Source: an uncultured Planctomycetia bacterium (GTDB lineage Bacteria; Omnitrophota; Gorgyraeia; 2-01-FULL-45-10). Taken from it: a stretch of DNA of 64,000 bases. Position numbers and translations under genes: made by a program. The DNA is taken from the NCBI GenBank assembly GCA_964352425.1, contig CAYGRZ010000003.1, forward strand, positions 21,077 through 85,076, written 5' to 3'. Within the stretch, counting starts at the first letter, position 1; each line of letters begins with the position of its first letter. The notes beneath the pieces were generated by a model. The model ran no database searches and was not told the origin of the DNA. It was given only the letters and a program-made list of their open reading frames with translations. Positions 51,395 to 64,000 of this stretch are shown piece by piece.

Positions 51395-52498
51395 TTAGAT
51401 GATAGTTGTGTCCGTCGATTTGTCGAAGAAGTGGACTTTAGACATATCGAACACTAAATCCATGTCCTGGTTAATGGTGGGCTTGTCATGGCCGCCGACC
51501 TTGGCGATAAGCGCGCTCTTGCCGGTATTCAAATACAGGTATGCCTCGGCGCCCATTGGTTCTATCACCTCGCATGTCGCCCTGATCGTGTTCTCCGGCG
51601 CGGCCTCAGAGACGAAGAGCTTATCGTATATGTCCTCCGGCCGTATGCCGAACGTCACTTCCCTGTCGAGGTACGGCGTGACCGCCCTGGCCATCGCGTC
51701 TATGATCTTTACCTGGAACCTGCCCTCGTTGAAATAGAGCTTGGCATCCTTCCTGATGATGGTGCCGCTCACGAAGTTCATCGGCGGCGTGCCGATAAAG
51801 CCGGCGACGAACCTGTTGACCGGCTTGTCGTACAGGGTTATCGGGTCGGCAATCTGCTGGATCAGGCCGTCTTTCATCACGACGATCCTGTCGCCCATCG
51901 TCATCGCCTCGACCTGGTCATGGGTGACGTATATCATCGTCGTCTGGAGCCTTATGTGCAGCTTCTTTATCTCGGTCCTCATCTGCACGCGCATCTTCGC
52001 GTCGAGGTTCGAGAGGGGTTCGTCGAAAAGGAACACGAGCGGCTTGCGGACGATCGCCCTGCCGACCGCCACGCGCTGGCGCTGGCCGCCGGAGAGCTCC
52101 CGCGGCTTGCGGTGCAGGAGCGTCTCGATGCCGAGGATCGTGGCGGCATCCTTTACGCGCGAGGCGATCTCCGCCTTCGGGTATTTCCGCAGCTGCAGGC
52201 CGAACGCCATGTTCTCGTAGACCGACATGTGCGGGTAGAGAGCGTAGTTCTGGAAGACCATCGCGATGTTCCTGTCCTTCGGCGGGATATCGTTGACGAG
52301 CTGGTTGCCTATGTAGACATCGCCTCCGGTCGCCTCTTCGAGGCCGGCGATGATCCGGAGCGTCGTGGATTTGCCGCATCCGGAAGGGCCGACGAAGACG
52401 ACGAATTCCCTGTTCTCAATGCCCAGGTTGATATCGCGTATTGCCCAGACATTTCCGGAGAAGCATTTCGAGACATTCTTCAGGCTTACCTGTGCCAT
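51395..52498 (-). CDS. ABC transporter ATP-binding protein, MalK/UgpC/MsiK-type (sugar importer ATPase)
   Basis: 367 aa. Walker A GPSGCGKST, Q-loop, signature LSGGQRQR, Walker B FLFDEPLS, and a MalK-like C-terminal regulatory domain. Confidence 0.85.
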   Translation of the reverse strand: MAQVSLKNVSKCFSGNVWAIRDINLGIENREFVVFVGPSGCGKSTTLRIIAGLEEATGGDVYIGNQLVNDIPPKDRNIAMVFQNYALYPHMSVYENMAFGLQLRKYPKAEIASRVKDAATILGIETLLHRKPRELSGGQRQRVAVGRAIVRKPLVFLFDEPLSNLDAKMRVQMRTEIKKLHIRLQTTMIYVTHDQVEAMTMGDRIVVMKDGLIQQIADPITLYDKPVNRFVAGFIGTPPMNFVSGTIIRKDAKLYFNEGRFQVKIIDAMARAVTPYLDREVTFGIRPEDIYDKLFVSEAAPENTIRATCEVIEPMGAEAYLYLNTGKSALIAKVGGHDKPTINQDMDLVFDMSKVHFFDKSTDTTII

Positions 52499-52537
52499 AT
52501 CGCCCTCTATTGTAACATACCCACTACGACCGCGTAA

Positions 52538-53380
52538 TCAAAAATACGTCAGGAGCTTCGTCAGCGTATCCTTCATGTTCTTCCTGTGCACGATCATGTC
52601 GATCAGGCCGTGGCTGAGCAGGAATTCCGATTTCTGGAAGCCGGGCGGGAGCTTCTGCCGTATCGTCTGCTCTATGACGCGCGGGCCGGTGAAGCCTATC
52701 AGGGCCTTCGGCTCCGCTATGATGAAGTCGCCGAGCGACGCGAAACTCGCCATGATGCCTGCCATCGTCGGGTTTGTCAGTACCGAGATGAAGAGCCCGC
52801 CTGAGCGGTCGAGGCGGCTTAAGGCCGCCGACGTCTTCGCCATCTGCATCAGCGAGTACATCCCCTCGTACATCCTCGCCCCTCCGCCGGAACCGGAGAC
52901 TATGATGAGCGGTTGCTTTTCTTTCGTCGCTTTCTCGATGGCCCGCGTAAGCTTTTCTCCGACAACGGAGCCCATCGAACCCATGATGAACCGCGCATCC
53001 GTCACGCCGATGACCACGCCGCGGCCGCTCAACTTGCCGGTGCCCGTGACCACGGCGTCCTTCAAACCTGTGGCCTCCTGGTCCTGCCTGATCTTTTCCT
53101 TATACGTCTTGGGGCCTTCGAACAAGAGCGGGTCGAGCGACTGCATCCCCTCGTCGGCCTCCTTGAATGTCCCGTCGTCTACCAGGAGCCGTATCCTCGC
53201 GTGTGCGTCGAGATTGAAATGGTAGCTGCACTTGTGGCACACCCGCAGGTTCTCGTCGAGTTTCTTGTTGTAGATCAGTTCGCCGCAGTCGGCGCACTTC
53301 GTCCAGAGGTTGCCGGGGATATCGCGCTTCTTCGAGACCTTTACGATAGTGTATTTCGGTTTCCTGGGGAATAGCGGCAT
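52538..53380 (-). CDS. accD: Acetyl-CoA carboxylase carboxyltransferase beta subunit
   Basis: 280 aa. N-terminal zinc ribbon CADCGELIYNKKLDENLRVCHKCSYH followed by a carboxyltransferase domain. Confidence 0.85.
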   Translation of the reverse strand: MPLFPRKPKYTIVKVSKKRDIPGNLWTKCADCGELIYNKKLDENLRVCHKCSYHFNLDAHARIRLLVDDGTFKEADEGMQSLDPLLFEGPKTYKEKIRQDQEATGLKDAVVTGTGKLSGRGVVIGVTDARFIMGSMGSVVGEKLTRAIEKATKEKQPLIIVSGSGGGARMYEGMYSLMQMAKTSAALSRLDRSGGLFISVLTNPTMAGIMASFASLGDFIIAEPKALIGFTGPRVIEQTIRQKLPPGFQKSEFLLSHGLIDMIVHRKNMKDTLTKLLTYF

Positions 53381-61022: not shown

Positions 61023-61199
61023 TGTAAAATGTTAAATGTCAAAGCACAAATGACAATTGAAGTCCAAAGATCAAAGTCCTCAGTTCAAAATTAAAGTTTA
61101 GAGTCAAAAGTTTTAAACTTTGGACTGTCACTTTGAACTTTGACTTTTGAACTTTGAACTTGCTTTGTCATTCGAATTTTGTCATTTGTCATTCTGTCT
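61023..61199 (-). repeat. AT-rich intergenic region with dense short repeats (TTCAAAGT / TGTCATT families) between grpE and dnaK
   Basis: On the plus strand: ...tttgaactttgacttttgaactttgaacttgc... and tgtcattcgaattttgtcatttgtcattctgtc. About 35% GC versus about 60% GC in the flanking genes. Confidence 0.5.
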
Positions 61200-61754
61200 T
61201 TAAGGCCTCTTTACTATCCTCACCATCGCCGGCCTGAGAAGCCTCCCGTTAAACCTGTAGCCGGGCTTCAGCTCCGCGACGATAAGCCCATCCTCCCCGT
61301 CTTTCGACTCCTCGGTCTCGATCGCCTCATGCATGTGCGGGTCGAACTTCTCGCCGACCGCCTTGATCCGCTCCAGGCCGATGTCTTTCAGGAACTTCTG
61401 GATCTGGAGCTGTATCATGTCGACGCCTTCCTGCACCGCCTTGAAATCCTTGGCCTGGGCTATGTGCTTTTCGGCCATCTCCAGATTGTCGATGATCGGC
61501 AGGAATTCGATCAGAAGGCCTTCGTTGGCGTACCTGACAAAATCGGTCTTCTCTTTCTCCATGCGCTTGCGCACATTCTCGAACTCGGCGTGGGCCCGCA
61601 CAAACTGGTCGTAGTAACCGTCCCGCTCGTCAGCTTTCGCCTTGAGCGCGTCGTACTCCTGCAGCGGAAGCGTCACGGTCTCACCGGCGGGCTGCTGTGT
61701 GGCCTTCTCGTCCTTGCCGTTACCGCTATCGCTCTTATTGTTCTTATGGGGCAT
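61200..61754 (-). CDS. grpE: Nucleotide exchange factor GrpE
   Basis: 184 aa. The coiled-coil region and C-terminal beta domain (AEFENVRKRMEKEK, LKPGYRFNGRLLRPAMV) match GrpE. Confidence 0.85.
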   Translation of the reverse strand: MPHKNNKSDSGNGKDEKATQQPAGETVTLPLQEYDALKAKADERDGYYDQFVRAHAEFENVRKRMEKEKTDFVRYANEGLLIEFLPIIDNLEMAEKHIAQAKDFKAVQEGVDMIQLQIQKFLKDIGLERIKAVGEKFDPHMHEAIETEESKDGEDGLIVAELKPGYRFNGRLLRPAMVRIVKRP

Positions 61755-61756
61755 CG

Positions 61757-62497
61757 CTATTTGATCTCCAGTTCATCGAGTATGTGCGTCACGGTATCGG
61801 CCAAAAATTCAACGGCCGGGATGACCCTCTCATAGACCATCCTCTTCGGGCCGATCACGCCGAGCCTGCCGGAGACCTTTCCTTTCACCTTATAACCCTT
61901 CGTCACGACACTGCAGTCGGATAAGGAGCTCGTCACATTCTCCTTGCCGATGTGGATGGTAAGCTTATCGCTGTCGAAGTCGTGGCTCAGCAGGCTCAGG
62001 AGGTCGCGCTTCTGTTCGAGGCACCGCAGGAGGGCATGCAATTTCTTCAGGTCATGGAACTCGGGCTGCTCGACGATGTGGCTCGCCCCGTCGAGATAGA
62101 GCCGGTCGTACTGCGCGAACAGCGTCAGCCCGACATAGTTGGTCATGTCCGACATCAGATGCGTGGTGCGCTGCAGGACGTCTTCAAGGGATCGTACCGC
62201 GCAGGAATACTCGTCGTGGACCGACCTGGCAGAGCGCTCATTCAGGTGCTTTAGATGCATCAGTGAGTCGATGAAATAACGGTAGCCGCGGTCGGTAGGG
62301 ATCCTCCCCGCGGAGGTATGCGGCTGCGCGATCAGCCCCATGTCTTCGAGATCGGCCATGACATTACGGATCGTGGCGCTCGAAAGGTCGAGCTTGCGCG
62401 AGATATAACGCGAACCTACCGGCTCCGCCGTCTCGACGTAGTGGCGCACGATCATCCCGAGCACTTCCTGCTGCCGTGTATTGAGCTCTTTTAGCAT
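61757..62497 (-). CDS. hrcA: Heat-inducible transcription repressor HrcA (short form)
   Basis: 246 aa. N-terminal winged HTH LTERQQEVL...VETAEPVGSR and C-terminal ...GVIGPKRMVYERVIPAVEFL match HrcA. Confidence 0.8.
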   Translation of the reverse strand: MLKELNTRQQEVLGMIVRHYVETAEPVGSRYISRKLDLSSATIRNVMADLEDMGLIAQPHTSAGRIPTDRGYRYFIDSLMHLKHLNERSARSVHDEYSCAVRSLEDVLQRTTHLMSDMTNYVGLTLFAQYDRLYLDGASHIVEQPEFHDLKKLHALLRCLEQKRDLLSLLSHDFDSDKLTIHIGKENVTSSLSDCSVVTKGYKVKGKVSGRLGVIGPKRMVYERVIPAVEFLADTVTHILDELEIK

Positions 62498-62519
62498 CGC
62501 AACCCTCTTCTTGCCTCTA

Positions 62520-62546
62520 TTGGCACTCTACATATTTGAGTGCTAA
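62520..62546 (-). promoter_or_regulatory. CIRCE operator (HrcA binding site) upstream of hrcA
   Basis: tTGGCACTC-tacatattt-GAGTGCTAA is a 9-N9-9 inverted repeat matching the CIRCE consensus TTAGCACTC-N9-GAGTGCTAA. It lies 23 nt upstream of the hrcA start. Confidence 0.7.
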
Positions 62547-63039
62547 TTGTCAAGGAAATTGTGAAATTTTTACTCGATTCTCAGGGCGGCGCCTACTTTT
62601 GTGCTTGCCTTCCGCTTGTTCGGCTTTACTTAAGGGCGTTTACTTTCGGAAGGTGCCTTCGCTTGCCGCTCACTTCGATTAGGCATCTCGTTCGCTGTCG
62701 CTGCGGCACGCATCCGAAAGTTCCGCCACTCTATGAAAGCCGAACAATCTTCGGCTACTTCTTGGATGGCGGCACGTATGCACGCCGCCCGCATCCCACC
62801 AAGCCCGGAGGCCTGGGTGCTAAAGCGGGGCCTAAAAATTGCGAGCGGGCATGGATCCGCCGAAGCCAATCTCTCACCTACACATGCAACGGCGAAGGCG
62901 GAGAGCGAGCAATTTTTCCGGAGTGTGGGTTTCCACGCCGGGGAGAACCACACGTCCCCGCGAGGCGCCCAGGCCGCAAGGGCTTGCTCAACAAGCGAAG
63001 GCGACAGCACAAGTGCCGCCTTACTCGAGAGCTAAATAC

Positions 63040-64000
63040 TTACACGCTCTTCTCGAGCATCTCTTTGAGGCGGAGCGGGACTTCGGCTTCGATATAGAGC
63101 CAGTCGCCCTCATACTCCTGCCTGCGGATAAAGCCGTTCTCGTGGATAAGATTGAGCGTCCTGGCGTCACCGGCGGGTATCTTGATAGTGATGATGGCCG
63201 TCGTGCCCTCCATGTGGCGCAGGATGCGCGCTATCAGCGTGTCGAACCCCTGCCTCTTGAGCGCCGATATCGCTATCGCGTCATTGAAATGGCCTTTGAG
63301 GCGCTCGACCGCTTCGCCCGCCTGGACCTTATCTATCTTGTTCAACGCGGTGATCACCGGCTTGTCGCTGGCGCCTATCTGGCCGAGCACGTCAAAGACG
63401 GCCGAGGCCTGCTCGAGGGCCTTCGGGTGGCTCGCGTCGACCAGGTGCAGGAGCACGTCCGCCTCGACGACCTCCTCGAGCGTCGCCTTGAACGCCTCGA
63501 CGAGGTGGTGCGGCAGCTCCTTGATAAACCCGACCGTATCGACGAAGAGGACCTTCTGGTTGTTTGGCATTACGAACTTTCTCACGGTCGGGTCGAGCGT
63601 CGCAAACAGCTTGTCACGGACGATGACGTCCGAATCGGTAAGCGCGTTTAAGAGCGTCGACTTGCCGACGTTCGTATACCCGATCAGAGCGACCGTAAGG
63701 ACTGAAAAACGCGACCGCTTCTTGCGCATCATCGCGCGGCGGCCTTCGAGGTCCCGGAGGCCCTTCTTCAGGAGCGTTATCCTGTCGCGTATACGGCGCC
63801 TGTCGACCTCGAGCTTCTGTTCCCCGGGGCCGCTCGTCCCGATGCCGCCGCCCGGCCTCGACATCATCACGCCCTTGCCGGTCAGCCGCGGCAGCAGGTA
63901 GCTGAGCTGTGCAAGCTCCACCTGCAGCTTGCCTTCATTTGAATGGGCGCGCCGCGCGAAGATTTGAAGGATGAGCTGCGTCCTGTCGACCGTCTTGACG
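63040..64000 (-). CDS. hflX: GTPase HflX (3' portion; the gene continues beyond the window end)
   Basis: G1 motif [15 protein letters not shown] and G3 DTVGF. Translating the minus strand to the window edge gives ...[34 protein letters not shown] with no stop. The track's start at 63921 is an internal GTG. Confidence 0.8.

What the first reader, a model, noticed from the sequence alone, without database searches (positions are those of the whole stretch)
62547..63039. About 490-nt GC-rich non-coding region between hflX and the hrcA promoter: candidate structured RNA
No credible ORF lies here. The overlapping ORFs 62540..63097(+), 62630..63010(-) and 62733..63035(+) have Arg/Cys/Pro-rich, protein-unlike translations. 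GC is about 60% with many short complementary segments, for example gtgtggg...cccacac, gcgagcgggc...gccgc and ccggaggcctgggtg. I could not match RNase P, tmRNA or SRP consensus motifs by eye. The size and composition are compatible with a structured ncRNA or a degraded gene remnant.
Basis: seen in the sequence. Interest (0 to 1): 0.55.

Follow-up and report, generated by a model that had tools for sequence, protein, structure and literature searches.

The report
Nest of structured interspersed repeat elements
The 490-base non-coding stretch is a lineage-specific insertion built from copies and fragments of hairpin-forming repeat elements scattered through Omnitrophota genomes, not a single-copy RNA gene or a dead gene, and these repeat families seem to be undescribed.

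Summary
Window 62547-63039 is non-coding, about 60% GC and far more self-complementary than chance (fold z = -7.3 on the + strand, -4.0 on the - strand). Rfam and ARAGORN find nothing.

It is not one RNA gene. Fourteen Omnitrophota relatives keep hflX next to hrcA with only 65-160 nt between them, so about 450 nt were inserted in this lineage.

The insert is a mosaic of four pieces:
- a 5'-arm fragment, U1
- a deletion derivative of repeat "A", at 62616-62747
- a second structured module "B", at 62797-62989
- an inverted 5' arm, U3, which pairs with U1

Family A units are 200-260 nt long. A pattern scan of metagenomes found about 62 copies. They occur several times per genome, in both orientations, always between housekeeping genes, and often at contig ends. 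One orthologous site is empty in this window and filled in a relative. A has a three-way-junction fold with 27 of 37 pairs showing compensatory changes, almost no G-U pairs, and invariant loop motifs.

My best reading is a set of non-autonomous mobile elements that act as DNA hairpins, like REPINs or MITEs, and that are a new variant of that kind. A multi-copy functional RNA, especially for B, is not excluded.

The parts
62519..62553 (-). Context and left boundary: the hrcA promoter (-35 TTGACA at 62553-62548, -10 TAGAGT at 62530-62525) overlapping the CIRCE inverted repeat. This is not part of the insertion.
   Evidence: Promoter scan. Inverted repeat I16. Conserved in five relatives.
62564..62584 (+). 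Left terminus of the insertion, AAATTTTTACTCGATTCTCAG. It resembles the AAATTTTT(A)CG 5' termini of family A units elsewhere. It contains the left copy of the 8-nt direct repeat TTACTCGA (62570-62577).
   Evidence: Termini of about 45 full copies listed. Direct repeat D15. Similarity to relatives stops just upstream of the -35 box.
62585..62620 (+). U1, a solitary A-type 5' arm (GGCGGCGCCTACTTTTGTGCTTGCCTTCCGCTTG) cut off after the junction motif. It pairs with U3 to form the outer stem, about 35 bp long.
   Evidence: nhmmer hit 62586-62618 to model positions 4-36. The outer helix appears in the minimum-free-energy folds. The same 'arm fragment followed by a full A unit' layout occurs in L106.
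62616..62747 (+). Family A unit, a deletion derivative. The extended closing helix (TTGTTCGGC...GCCGAACAA), the P1 arms, the junction CGCTTGCCGC, the P2 loop ATTAGGCAT and the 3' arm GTCGCT...AAAGTTCCGCC are all present. The whole P3 domain (model positions 71-153) is missing.
   Evidence: nhmmer hit 62632-62698 to model positions 3-70 (E = 1.7e-13 against about 1 Mb). Second hit 62697-62728 to positions 154-185. Inverted repeat I1. Alignment.
62764..62796 (.). Module H, a small hairpin (GGATGGCGGCACGTATGCACGCCGCCCGCATCC). It recurs with compensatory changes before B in L149 and in both L089 copies. Read on the - strand it looks like the 3' arm that matches U3.
   Evidence: 91% identity of window 62764-62856 to L149. 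L089 sequences. Inverted repeat I5, 62768-62781 with 63007-63020.
62797..62989 (+). Module B, a multi-helix structured unit of about 190 nt. It has a long closing stem (AAGCCC/GGGCTT, GGCCTGGGTGC/GCGCCCAGGCC, GCGGGG/CCCCGC). That stem leads to a junction carrying AAAAATTGC/GCAATTTTT, a variable hairpin, and the hairpin 62923-62953 with the conserved loop CCACGCCGGGGA.
   Evidence: Homologues: L153 128-303 (full), L149 and L089 (cut by contig ends). Alignment fold: 55 pairs, 13 compensatory, 6 G-U on the + strand at -96.6 kcal/mol, against 48 pairs at -70.8 on the - strand. Single-sequence z = -4.8 (+) and -3.1 (-).
62990..63020 (-). U3, an inverted A-type 5' arm with its junction motif. Read on the - strand it is GGCGGCACTTGTGCTGTCGCCTTCGCTTG. 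It is complementary to U1.
   Evidence: Inverted repeats I3, I10 and I23. The same inverted arm followed by TTGAGCAAGCCCTTGCGGCC occurs in L089 copy 2.
63021..63039 (+). Right terminus, with the right copy of TTACTCGA (63021-63028). It abuts the hflX stop codon at 63040-63042.
   Evidence: Direct repeat D15. ORF table. In several other copies a unit also starts directly at the stop codon of the upstream gene.

Best explanation
The region is an insertion of about 450 nt, specific to this lineage, between the hflX stop codon and the hrcA promoter. It is a nest of non-coding, hairpin-forming interspersed repeats that occur many times in Omnitrophota genomes.

**Shown**
- The insert contains, in order: an A-type 5'-arm fragment (U1); an A unit that has lost its P3 domain; a small hairpin H; a second structured module B; and an inverted A-type arm (U3).
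- The high folding energy has two sources. Each module has its own conserved fold, and U1 and U3 are related arms in opposite orientation that pair with each other.

**Inferred**
- The units are non-autonomous mobile DNA, comparable to REPINs, MITEs or IS200/IS605-derived palindromic elements.
- They are recognised and moved as folded single-stranded or cruciform DNA by an enzyme encoded elsewhere in the genome.
- They land in spacers just after stop codons or ahead of promoters.
- In this window the nest probably has no dedicated function. At most it adds a strong hairpin to the end of the hflX transcript and separates hflX from the hrcA promoter.
For: **Insertion**
- hflX-hrcA synteny is kept in 14 Omnitrophota relatives, with gaps of about 65-160 nt against 541 nt here.
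- Only the promoter and CIRCE element align.

**Multi-copy family**
- A 21-base pattern scan of metagenomes gave 71 loci, about 62 of them true.
- Several copies lie on the same large contigs, including convergent pairs.
- In 25 of 49 whole contigs the element is within 200 nt of a contig end, against 8.9 expected.
- Two Logan contigs carrying this exact hrcA both break inside the element, at window 62652.

**Gain and loss at orthologous sites**
- The accD / ABC-ATPase spacer is 39 nt in this window. In syntenic L136 it is about 655 nt and holds two A units.

**No orientation bias and no linked gene**
- Relative to the upstream gene, 26 copies point the same way and 31 the opposite way.
- Neighbours are unrelated housekeeping genes, and no transposase or other recurrent neighbour appears.
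- No conserved promoter or terminator accompanies the units.

**Conserved fold of family A**
- 96.7% of cells are paired, 27 of 37 pairs show double changes, 0 of 500 shuffles reach this, and slid controls give 38-50% paired.
- Among variable pairs there are only 7 G-U cells and 11 A-C cells against 848 Watson-Crick cells. There is no wobble excess and no strand asymmetry. That is what DNA-level pairing would give and is unusual for an RNA.

**Membership of the window copy**
- nhmmer E = 1.7e-13 for the 5' half, plus separate hits for the 3' arm and for U1.

**Mosaic and truncated architecture**
- The same kinds of arrangement recur in L089, L106, L149 and L153.
Against: - No transposase or other mobilising enzyme was found, and none could be searched for genome-wide.
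- No convincing target-site duplication exists. The 8-nt TTACTCGA pair in the window is no more than chance would give in 751 nt (about 4 such pairs expected, 3 seen), and other copies show none.
- Invariant unpaired motifs (CCGCTTGCCGC, ATTAGGCAT, ATCGCC, AGTCGCT), a three-way junction and a possible loop-loop pairing (UAGGC with GCCUA) look more like a functional RNA, or a protein-recognised fold, than a typical MITE.
- Two contigs whose flanking proteins are 74% identical both carry an A unit right after the stop codon, with different stem sequences. This hints at long-term maintenance rather than decay.
- Module B shows 6 G-U pairs on the + strand and none on the - strand, and it folds better on the + strand. 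That is RNA-like, but it rests on only two full sequences.
Confidence: 0.6

Rival explanations
1. A and/or B are multi-copy genes for a new class of functional structured RNA, such as a guide or scaffold RNA, a regulatory RNA or a self-cleaving ribozyme carried on a repeat. On this view the window holds one intact B RNA on the + strand and a crippled A copy.
For: - Family A has a conserved three-way junction with 27 covarying pairs and invariant loop and junction nucleotides across divergent genomes.
- B has 13 compensatory pairs plus 6 G-U pairs, all on one strand. Its + strand fold is well defined: the minimum-free-energy structure takes 9.5% of the ensemble, against 0.3% on the - strand.
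- An A unit is kept right after the stop codon of a gene whose product is 74% identical between two contigs.
Against: - No conserved promoter or terminator accompanies the units.
- Orientation relative to neighbouring genes is random.
- Family A has almost no G-U pairs and no strand asymmetry.
- Copies are gained and lost at orthologous sites, and truncated or nested copies are common.
- No Rfam family matches, even at permissive thresholds, on 10 canonical loci.
- The B evidence rests on two full-length sequences.
Confidence: 0.22
2. The insert acts in cis on its neighbours. It would be a 3'-UTR hairpin that stabilises or terminates the hflX transcript and insulates the heat-shock promoter of hrcA, in the way REP/BIME elements act in E. 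coli.
For: - The insert sits exactly between the hflX stop codon and the hrcA -35 box.
- Many family members start directly at the stop codon of the upstream gene.
- The predicted hairpins are very stable on the - strand too, which is the hflX sense strand.
Against: - Fourteen relatives manage without it.
- There is no canonical intrinsic terminator (a stem followed by a run of U) at the unit ends.
- Units lie in all kinds of spacers (co-directional, divergent and convergent) and in both orientations.
- Any such effect would be a by-product rather than the reason the family exists.
Confidence: 0.1
3. A single-copy, lineage-specific large structured ncRNA gene of about 450 nt.
For: - On the + strand the whole region closes into one large fold, z = -7.3.
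- No ORF is credible.
Against: - The closing stem is simply two inverted copies of the same repeat arm.
- The parts occur separately, and in other arrangements, in other genomes.
- The region is absent from close relatives.
- No + strand promoter is present.
Confidence: 0.03
4. A decayed protein-coding gene, or a frameshifted ORF.
For: Three frames are open over most of the region.
Against: - No Pfam match.
- Two translated searches of the B part against 5.8 billion proteins found nothing.
- Relatives have no gene between hflX and hrcA.
- Homologous copies vary by 1-2-nt indels and by paired substitutions.
- Open frames are expected in sequence with 60% GC.
Confidence: 0.01

Closest known systems
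REP / REPIN elements mobilised by RAYT (Y1/HUH) transposases, and their BIME mosaics in proteobacteria
   Same: - Short, non-coding, strictly intergenic repeats present many times per genome.
- Hairpin-forming, with stems kept by Watson-Crick compensation.
- Often found as inverted doublets and mosaics of several module types.
- Placed just after stop codons.
- No target-site duplication.
- Lineage-specific sequence subfamilies.
- Possible secondary roles as mRNA 3' stabilisers.
(The properties of REPINs are from my own knowledge.)
   Different: - Units here are 200-260 nt with a three-way junction and invariant loop motifs, not palindromes of 20-35 nt.
- There is no conserved GTAG-type head.
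- No RAYT gene was identified.
- The host phylum is Omnitrophota.
Bacterial MITEs that fold as long hairpins (Correia/NEMIS, ERIC/IRU, RUP, and the modular BOX elements)
   Same: - Non-autonomous and multi-copy.
- Terminal inverted repeats: AAATTTTTCG...CGAAAAATTT in many copies, and a 24-bp inverted repeat in the Ga0082335 subfamily.
- Presence/absence differences at orthologous sites.
- Nested and truncated copies.
- They break short-read assemblies.
- Modular make-up, as in BOX elements.
   Different: - No target-site duplication was found.
- The stems covary rather than being conserved in sequence.
- The strongest conservation lies in internal loops and junctions, not at the tips.
- No parent IS element with matching ends is known.
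Integron attC sites
   Same: - Recombination sites conserved in structure but not in sequence.
- They act as folded single-stranded DNA, show Watson-Crick-only covariation, sit right after the stop codon of the upstream ORF, and are species-specific repeats.
(The properties of attC sites are from my own knowledge.)
   Different: - The RYYYAAC / GTTRRRY core sites are absent from the arms.
- The units are dispersed singly or in convergent pairs, not in co-oriented arrays.
- No integrase gene lies nearby, and the units are longer.
Large structured bacterial ncRNAs in Rfam (OLE, ROOL, GOLLD, raiA, HEARO / omega RNA, RNase P, 6S, tmRNA)
   Same: Size range, multi-helix fold, covariation support and conserved unpaired nucleotides.
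   Different: - No match to any of 4227 Rfam models in the window or in 10 canonical loci.
- Multi-copy, with random orientation.
- Almost no G-U pairs in family A.
- No associated protein gene, unlike HEARO/IscB or omega RNA/TnpB.

Membership tests
Any Rfam 15 RNA family (including RNase P, tmRNA, SRP, 6S, OLE, ROOL, HEARO and group I/II introns) | Covariance-model match at or near the family's gathering score | tested here: not met
   No match at E <= 1 on window 61500-64000. None at gathering score over the whole window. Only tRNAs and one chance miRNA hit on 10 canonical loci. ARAGORN found no tRNA or tmRNA.
Omnitrophota repeat family A (defined here) | 5' arm GGCGTTTACTTTYG..., the junction CGCTTGCCGC and the P2 hairpin with loop ATTAGGCAT | tested here: met
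   nhmmer hit 62632-62698 to model positions 3-70, E = 1.7e-13 against about 1 Mb. Alignment shown.
Omnitrophota repeat family A (defined here) | 3' arm AGTCGCT...CAAAAGTTCCGCC pairing with the 5' arm (P1) | tested here: met
   Window 62697-62728 matches model positions 154-185. CTTTCGGA pairs with TCCGAAAG, a compensated variant of the consensus CTTTTG/CAAAAG (I1).
Omnitrophota repeat family A (defined here) | P3 domain (AAAATTTTGAT...ATCGCCATAAGGTATCAAAATTTT) | tested here: not met
   Model positions 71-153 are absent from the window copy. It is a deletion derivative.
MITE (miniature inverted-repeat transposable element) | Short, non-coding and multi-copy, with insertion polymorphism | tested here: met
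   About 62 copies in metagenomes, several per genome. The site is filled here and empty in 14 relatives. The accD/ABC-ATPase spacer is empty here and filled in L136.
MITE (miniature inverted-repeat transposable element) | Terminal inverted repeats | tested here: met
   AAATTTTTCG...CGAAAAATTT termini in many copies. A 24-bp inverted repeat in the Ga0082335 subfamily. In the window, U1 against U3.
MITE (miniature inverted-repeat transposable element) | Target-site duplication flanking each copy | tested here: inconclusive
   The window has TTACTCGA on both sides (D15), but 8-nt repeats are expected by chance in 751 nt. No duplication is visible in other copies. The available empty and filled sites are too diverged to fix the exact ends.
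MITE (miniature inverted-repeat transposable element) | A cognate autonomous element or transposase with the same ends | not testable with these tools
   No transposase lies among 177 neighbouring ORFs. Whole genomes could not be scanned.
REP / REPIN-RAYT system | A palindromic unit of 20-35 nt with a conserved 5' GTAG-type motif, and a RAYT gene flanked by the units | tested here: not met
   Units are 200-260 nt and have no GTAG head. No RAYT gene appears in the flanks. A genome-wide search for RAYT was not possible.
Integron attC site | R''/R' core sites (RYYYAAC ... GTTRRRY), co-oriented arrays, and an integrase or cassette context | tested here: not met
   The arms read GGCGTTTAC... / ...AAGTTCCGCC, with no AAC/GTT core pair. 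Copies are single or in convergent pairs.
Intrinsic (Rho-independent) terminator | A GC-rich stem followed directly by a run of U | tested here: not met
   Only one weak site was found in the region, on the - strand inside B (62861-62844), which is no more than in shuffles. None is consistently present at unit ends.
Protein-coding gene or pseudogene | Homology to a protein family, or codon-like conservation | tested here: not met
   No Pfam match. No protein homologues for B in two frames. Substitutions are paired and indels are not in multiples of three.

The most novel reading that the evidence does not exclude
Families A and B are not junk. They would be a new class of functional folded nucleic acid carried on a mobile repeat in Omnitrophota. 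One possibility is an undescribed structured RNA: B on its + strand, or A as a scaffold, guide or self-cleaving RNA with its invariant junction and loop nucleotides. The other is the recognition substrate of an unknown single-strand DNA transposase or recombinase whose site is a three-way junction of about 200 nt rather than a simple hairpin.
Probability: 0.2. Interest if true: 0.75.

Novelty: new variant of a known kind. Interest (0 to 1): 0.42.

Why it matters
**For annotating this window.** The region should not be flagged as a candidate RNA gene, and the ORFs in it are spurious.

**More broadly.** Following it up exposed at least two apparently undescribed families of interspersed, structurally conserved repeats in Omnitrophota, an uncultured phylum of very small, host-dependent bacteria.
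- The repeats break metagenome assemblies.
- They mark insertion polymorphisms between strains.
- They have an unusually elaborate conserved fold (three-way junction, invariant loops, Watson-Crick-only covariation).
- That fold points either to an unknown hairpin-DNA mobilisation system or to a new multi-copy RNA.

Either outcome can be tested with existing metatranscriptomes and complete genomes.

Tried and rejected
**Searches that found nothing**
- Rfam at permissive thresholds, on the window and on canonical copies.
- ARAGORN, for tRNA and tmRNA.
- BLAST of the region against phage and plasmid collections.
- Pattern scans of viral contigs. The A pattern gave only chance hits in coding DNA, and the B pattern gave none.
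- Full-text literature searches for Omnitrophota/Omnitrophica together with repeats, MITEs or structured RNA. Nothing relevant turned up.

**Attempt to recover more B copies**
- I searched translations of B in two frames against the 5.8-billion-protein collection, hoping spurious ORFs would mark B copies. There were no hits. I did not try the third frame.

**Ideas considered and dropped**
- I first read the 8-nt direct repeat TTACTCGA as a target-site duplication. I dropped this because such repeats are expected by chance, the left copy lies inside a family-typical terminus, and other copies show none.
- A specific link between family A and the hrcA-grpE-dnaK-dnaJ cluster (copies also occur after dnaK in L009 and before dnaJ in L007/L104). 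The density of copies, roughly 1 per 100-160 kb, explains this by sampling alone.
- An IHF-site reading of TATCAAAATTTTA in P3. The positions covary as a stem.
- An internal promoter (TAGGCA-16-TAAAAT). It is not conserved across copies.
- A recurrent neighbouring gene. The largest cluster among 177 flanking ORFs has 3 members, and all are housekeeping genes.

**Not attempted**
- I built no covariance model, because nhmmer already placed the window copy and no further public collection could be searched.

Full report
**Setting**

The window comes from a member of Candidatus Omnitrophota. Its HrcA is 82% identical to that of an Omnitrophota MAG, and the 15 best genomic matches are all from that phylum.

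On the - strand the gene order is hflX (stop codon at 63040-63042), a 541-nt spacer, hrcA (62497..61757), grpE, dnaK and dnaJ. The hrcA promoter is TTGACA-17-TAGAGT at 62553-62525, overlapping a CIRCE inverted repeat at 62519-62547. It is conserved in relatives. The finding covers the rest of the spacer.

**Checking the observation**

- GC is 0.53-0.64 over most of the region, similar to the coding flanks. A normal spacer in this genome is very different: grpE-dnaK has 31% GC.
- The region is much more self-complementary than shuffled controls. As RNA, z = -7.3 on the + strand and -4.0 on the - strand. As DNA, z = -6.4.
- Rfam finds nothing, even at E <= 1. ARAGORN finds nothing.

**It is an insertion**

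- Fourteen related Omnitrophota loci keep hflX directly upstream of hrcA, typically with 65-160 nt between them.
- Only the promoter/CIRCE block of the window's spacer aligns to them.
- No relative has a gene at this position, so a decayed gene is excluded. About 450 nt have been added in this lineage.
- Two short Logan contigs from two samples encode the identical HrcA. Both stop at the same base, window 62652, inside the region. That was the first hint of a repeat.

**Finding the family**

Weak matches to the region appeared elsewhere in two of the hrcA loci: just after dnaK in L009, and at a contig end in L007. Those two copies differ from each other by compensatory changes in hairpins.

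I scanned metagenome contigs with a pattern taken from blocks shared by the three sequences (CTTGCCGC N6-10 ATTAGGCAT N6-10 GCTG). It returned 71 loci, of which about 62 are clearly homologous. I call this element family A.

In the 64-kb window it finds only this locus:
- 62632-62698 matches model positions 3-70 (E = 1.7e-13).
- 62697-62728 matches positions 154-185.
- 62586-62618 is a separate hit to the 5' arm.

The window's A unit (62616-62747 with its extended closing helix) has therefore lost the whole P3 domain.

**Properties of family A**

- *Size and copy number.* Units are 200-260 nt. Several lie on the same large contigs. Seven pattern matches fall on four Ga0082335 contigs totalling 1.64 Mb, with extra copies beside them forming convergent pairs.
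- *Assembly breaks.* In 25 of 49 whole contigs the element lies within 200 nt of a contig end, against 8.9 expected.
- *Position and orientation.* Copies lie between ordinary housekeeping genes (PriA, a GGDEF protein, Fmt, KsgA and others). No neighbour recurs and no transposase is present. Relative to the upstream gene, 26 copies point the same way and 31 the opposite way.
- *Gain and loss.* The accD / ABC-ATPase spacer is 39 nt in this window. In the syntenic contig L136 it is about 655 nt and holds a convergent pair of A units. This is the reciprocal of the hflX-hrcA case.
- *Termini.* Many units start directly at the stop codon of the upstream gene and end in AAATTTTTCG...CGAAAAATTT. One genome-specific subfamily instead has a 24-bp terminal inverted repeat containing its own small palindrome.
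- *Target-site duplication.* None is evident.

**Structure of family A**

RNAalifold on the 32 units predicts a three-way junction:
- A long closing helix P1 (GGCGTTTACTTTTGNGG... with ...CCNCAAAAGTTCCGCC).
- A hairpin P2 with an invariant foot (GCCGC/GCTGT) and an invariant loop (ATTAGGCAT).
- An A/T-rich helix P3, with or without an inner hairpin.
- Invariant unpaired stretches: CCGCTTGCCGC, ATCGCC and AGTCGCT.

On this structure 96.7% of cells are paired and 27 of 37 pairs carry changes on both sides (191 cells). No shuffle out of 500 reaches these values, and sliding the partners by 1-3 columns drops pairing to 38-50%. The fold is real.

Among pairs that vary there are 848 Watson-Crick cells, only 7 G-U cells and 11 A-C cells. 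So there is essentially no wobble pairing, and no difference between the strands. That is unusual for a functional RNA. It is expected if the pairing matters in DNA, or equally on both strands.

The P2 loop UAGGC could pair with a GCCUA/GCCUG motif in the P3 loop. Both are nearly invariant, so this cannot be tested by covariation.

**The rest of the window's insert**

BLAST and an HMM show that 62764-62989 is also repeated elsewhere:
- 91% identity to L149, where it follows an A unit downstream of priA.
- The same arrangement in L089.
- A full but diverged copy in L153 (73% identity).

I call 62797-62989 module B. Its features:
- Window and L153 share a multi-helix fold with 55 pairs, 13 of them compensatory. 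Conserved unpaired stretches are GCGAGCGGGCAYGGA and CCACGCCGGGGA.
- On the + strand, 6 pairs are G-U in one of the two sequences.
- The - strand alignment supports only 48 pairs, at -70.8 against -96.6 kcal/mol.
- The single-sequence fold is better defined on the + strand.

This is a hint that B is read as + strand RNA. It rests on two sequences, and I could not find more.

The other pieces are as follows:
- Module H (62764-62796) is a small hairpin that recurs before B, with compensatory changes.
- U1 (62585-62620) is an A-type 5' arm ending in the junction motif GCTTG.
- U3 (62990-63020, inverted) is a second such arm.
- Because U1 and U3 face each other, they form the outer stem of about 35 bp that makes the whole region look like one closed molecule.
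- L089 copy 2 has the same A-H-inverted-arm layout without the B core. L106 has an arm fragment followed by a full A unit. L153 has A and B in the opposite relative orientation.

The region is therefore a mosaic of modules whose exact insertion history I cannot reconstruct.

**Interpretation**

Shown:
- The stretch is a lineage-specific insertion.
- It is made of members and fragments of multi-copy, non-coding, structurally conserved interspersed repeats.

Inferred:
- These are non-autonomous mobile elements that work through folded DNA, as REPINs, IS200/IS605-derived palindromic elements or attC sites do.
- The grounds are the insertion polymorphism, random orientation, lack of promoters and terminators, truncated and nested copies, genome-specific subfamilies and Watson-Crick-only covariation.

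Points against this reading:
- No mobilising enzyme has been found.
- No target-site duplication has been found.
- The invariant loops and junction are elaborate.
- An A unit is retained after an orthologous gene in two diverged contigs.
- Module B has RNA-like asymmetry.

I put about 0.6 on the mobile-DNA reading. I put about 0.2 on a functional multi-copy RNA, about 0.1 on a mainly cis-acting role at hflX/hrcA, and very little on a single-copy RNA gene or a pseudogene.

**Comparison with known systems**

No Rfam family matches. The closest analogues by behaviour are REP/REPIN/BIME elements and hairpin-forming MITEs such as Correia, ERIC and BOX.
- The present units are much longer and fold into a junction.
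- They are most conserved in loops rather than at the tips.
- They lack the REP head motif and any visible duplication.
- They resemble attC sites in being structure-conserved and sitting after stop codons, but they lack the core sites and the array organisation.

I found no description of them in the searchable literature, although that library is incomplete. I rate this a new variant of a known kind. For this window the practical verdict is ordinary: it is repeat DNA. The families behind it deserve a proper census.

Noticed in passing
window 61043-61199 (grpE-dnaK spacer): This spacer has 31% GC and is an imperfect long palindrome built from the heptamers TTTGAAC and TTTGTCA and their complements. 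A 58-nt stretch (61136-61193) recurs at 88% identity in L149 11711-11768, an unrelated spacer upstream of priA. It is probably another interspersed repeat family.
   Followed up: partly
window 52499-52537, against L136 2665-3322: The spacer between accD (52538..53380 -) and a MalK-like ABC ATPase (51395..52498 -) is 39 nt here. In the syntenic metagenome contig it is about 655 nt and carries a convergent pair of A units. This is a clean empty-site / filled-site pair.
   Followed up: yes
L116 (Ga0265297_10271421, 1194 nt), with L104 and L126 from the same sample: One A unit is split across the two ends of this small contig. Either two direct A copies flank a 1.06-kb segment encoding a PspC-like protein of 91 aa and two small ORFs, or the contig is a circle. 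Three contigs of that sample end inside the same A sequence, which lies between dnaK and dnaJ.
   Followed up: partly
L090, L091 and L149; also L009, L134 and L141 (5' ends of A units): A units often begin directly at, or overlapping, the stop codon of the upstream gene (TAAttttttc, TGAtttttcgg, TAAatttttcg). L090 and L091 have flanking proteins 74% identical, and both carry an A unit there, with different stem sequences.
   Followed up: partly
L081 and L082 (Logan contigs from ERR3804373 and ERR3804374): Both contigs encode the identical HrcA, and both end at exactly window position 62652, inside the 5' arm of the A unit. This fits an assembly-graph branch at a repeat.
   Followed up: yes
Ga0082335 contigs (L109, L111, L114, L136, L139, L145, L146): In this genome each A unit is bracketed by small palindromes (CATATGGCCATCTCGGCCATGATA ... 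ATCATGGCCTCGTGGCCATACAA) instead of the TTTTTCG/CGAAAAA termini. In three loci it is paired, tail to tail, with a second A subtype that has a different junction (CCGCTCGTCGC).
   Followed up: partly
window 62797-62989 and L153 126-303: Every non-Watson-Crick pair in the shared fold of module B is G-U on the + strand (6 cells), and none is G-U on the - strand. Family A, by contrast, shows 7 G-U against 11 A-C cells. B may be read as RNA even if A is not.
   Followed up: partly
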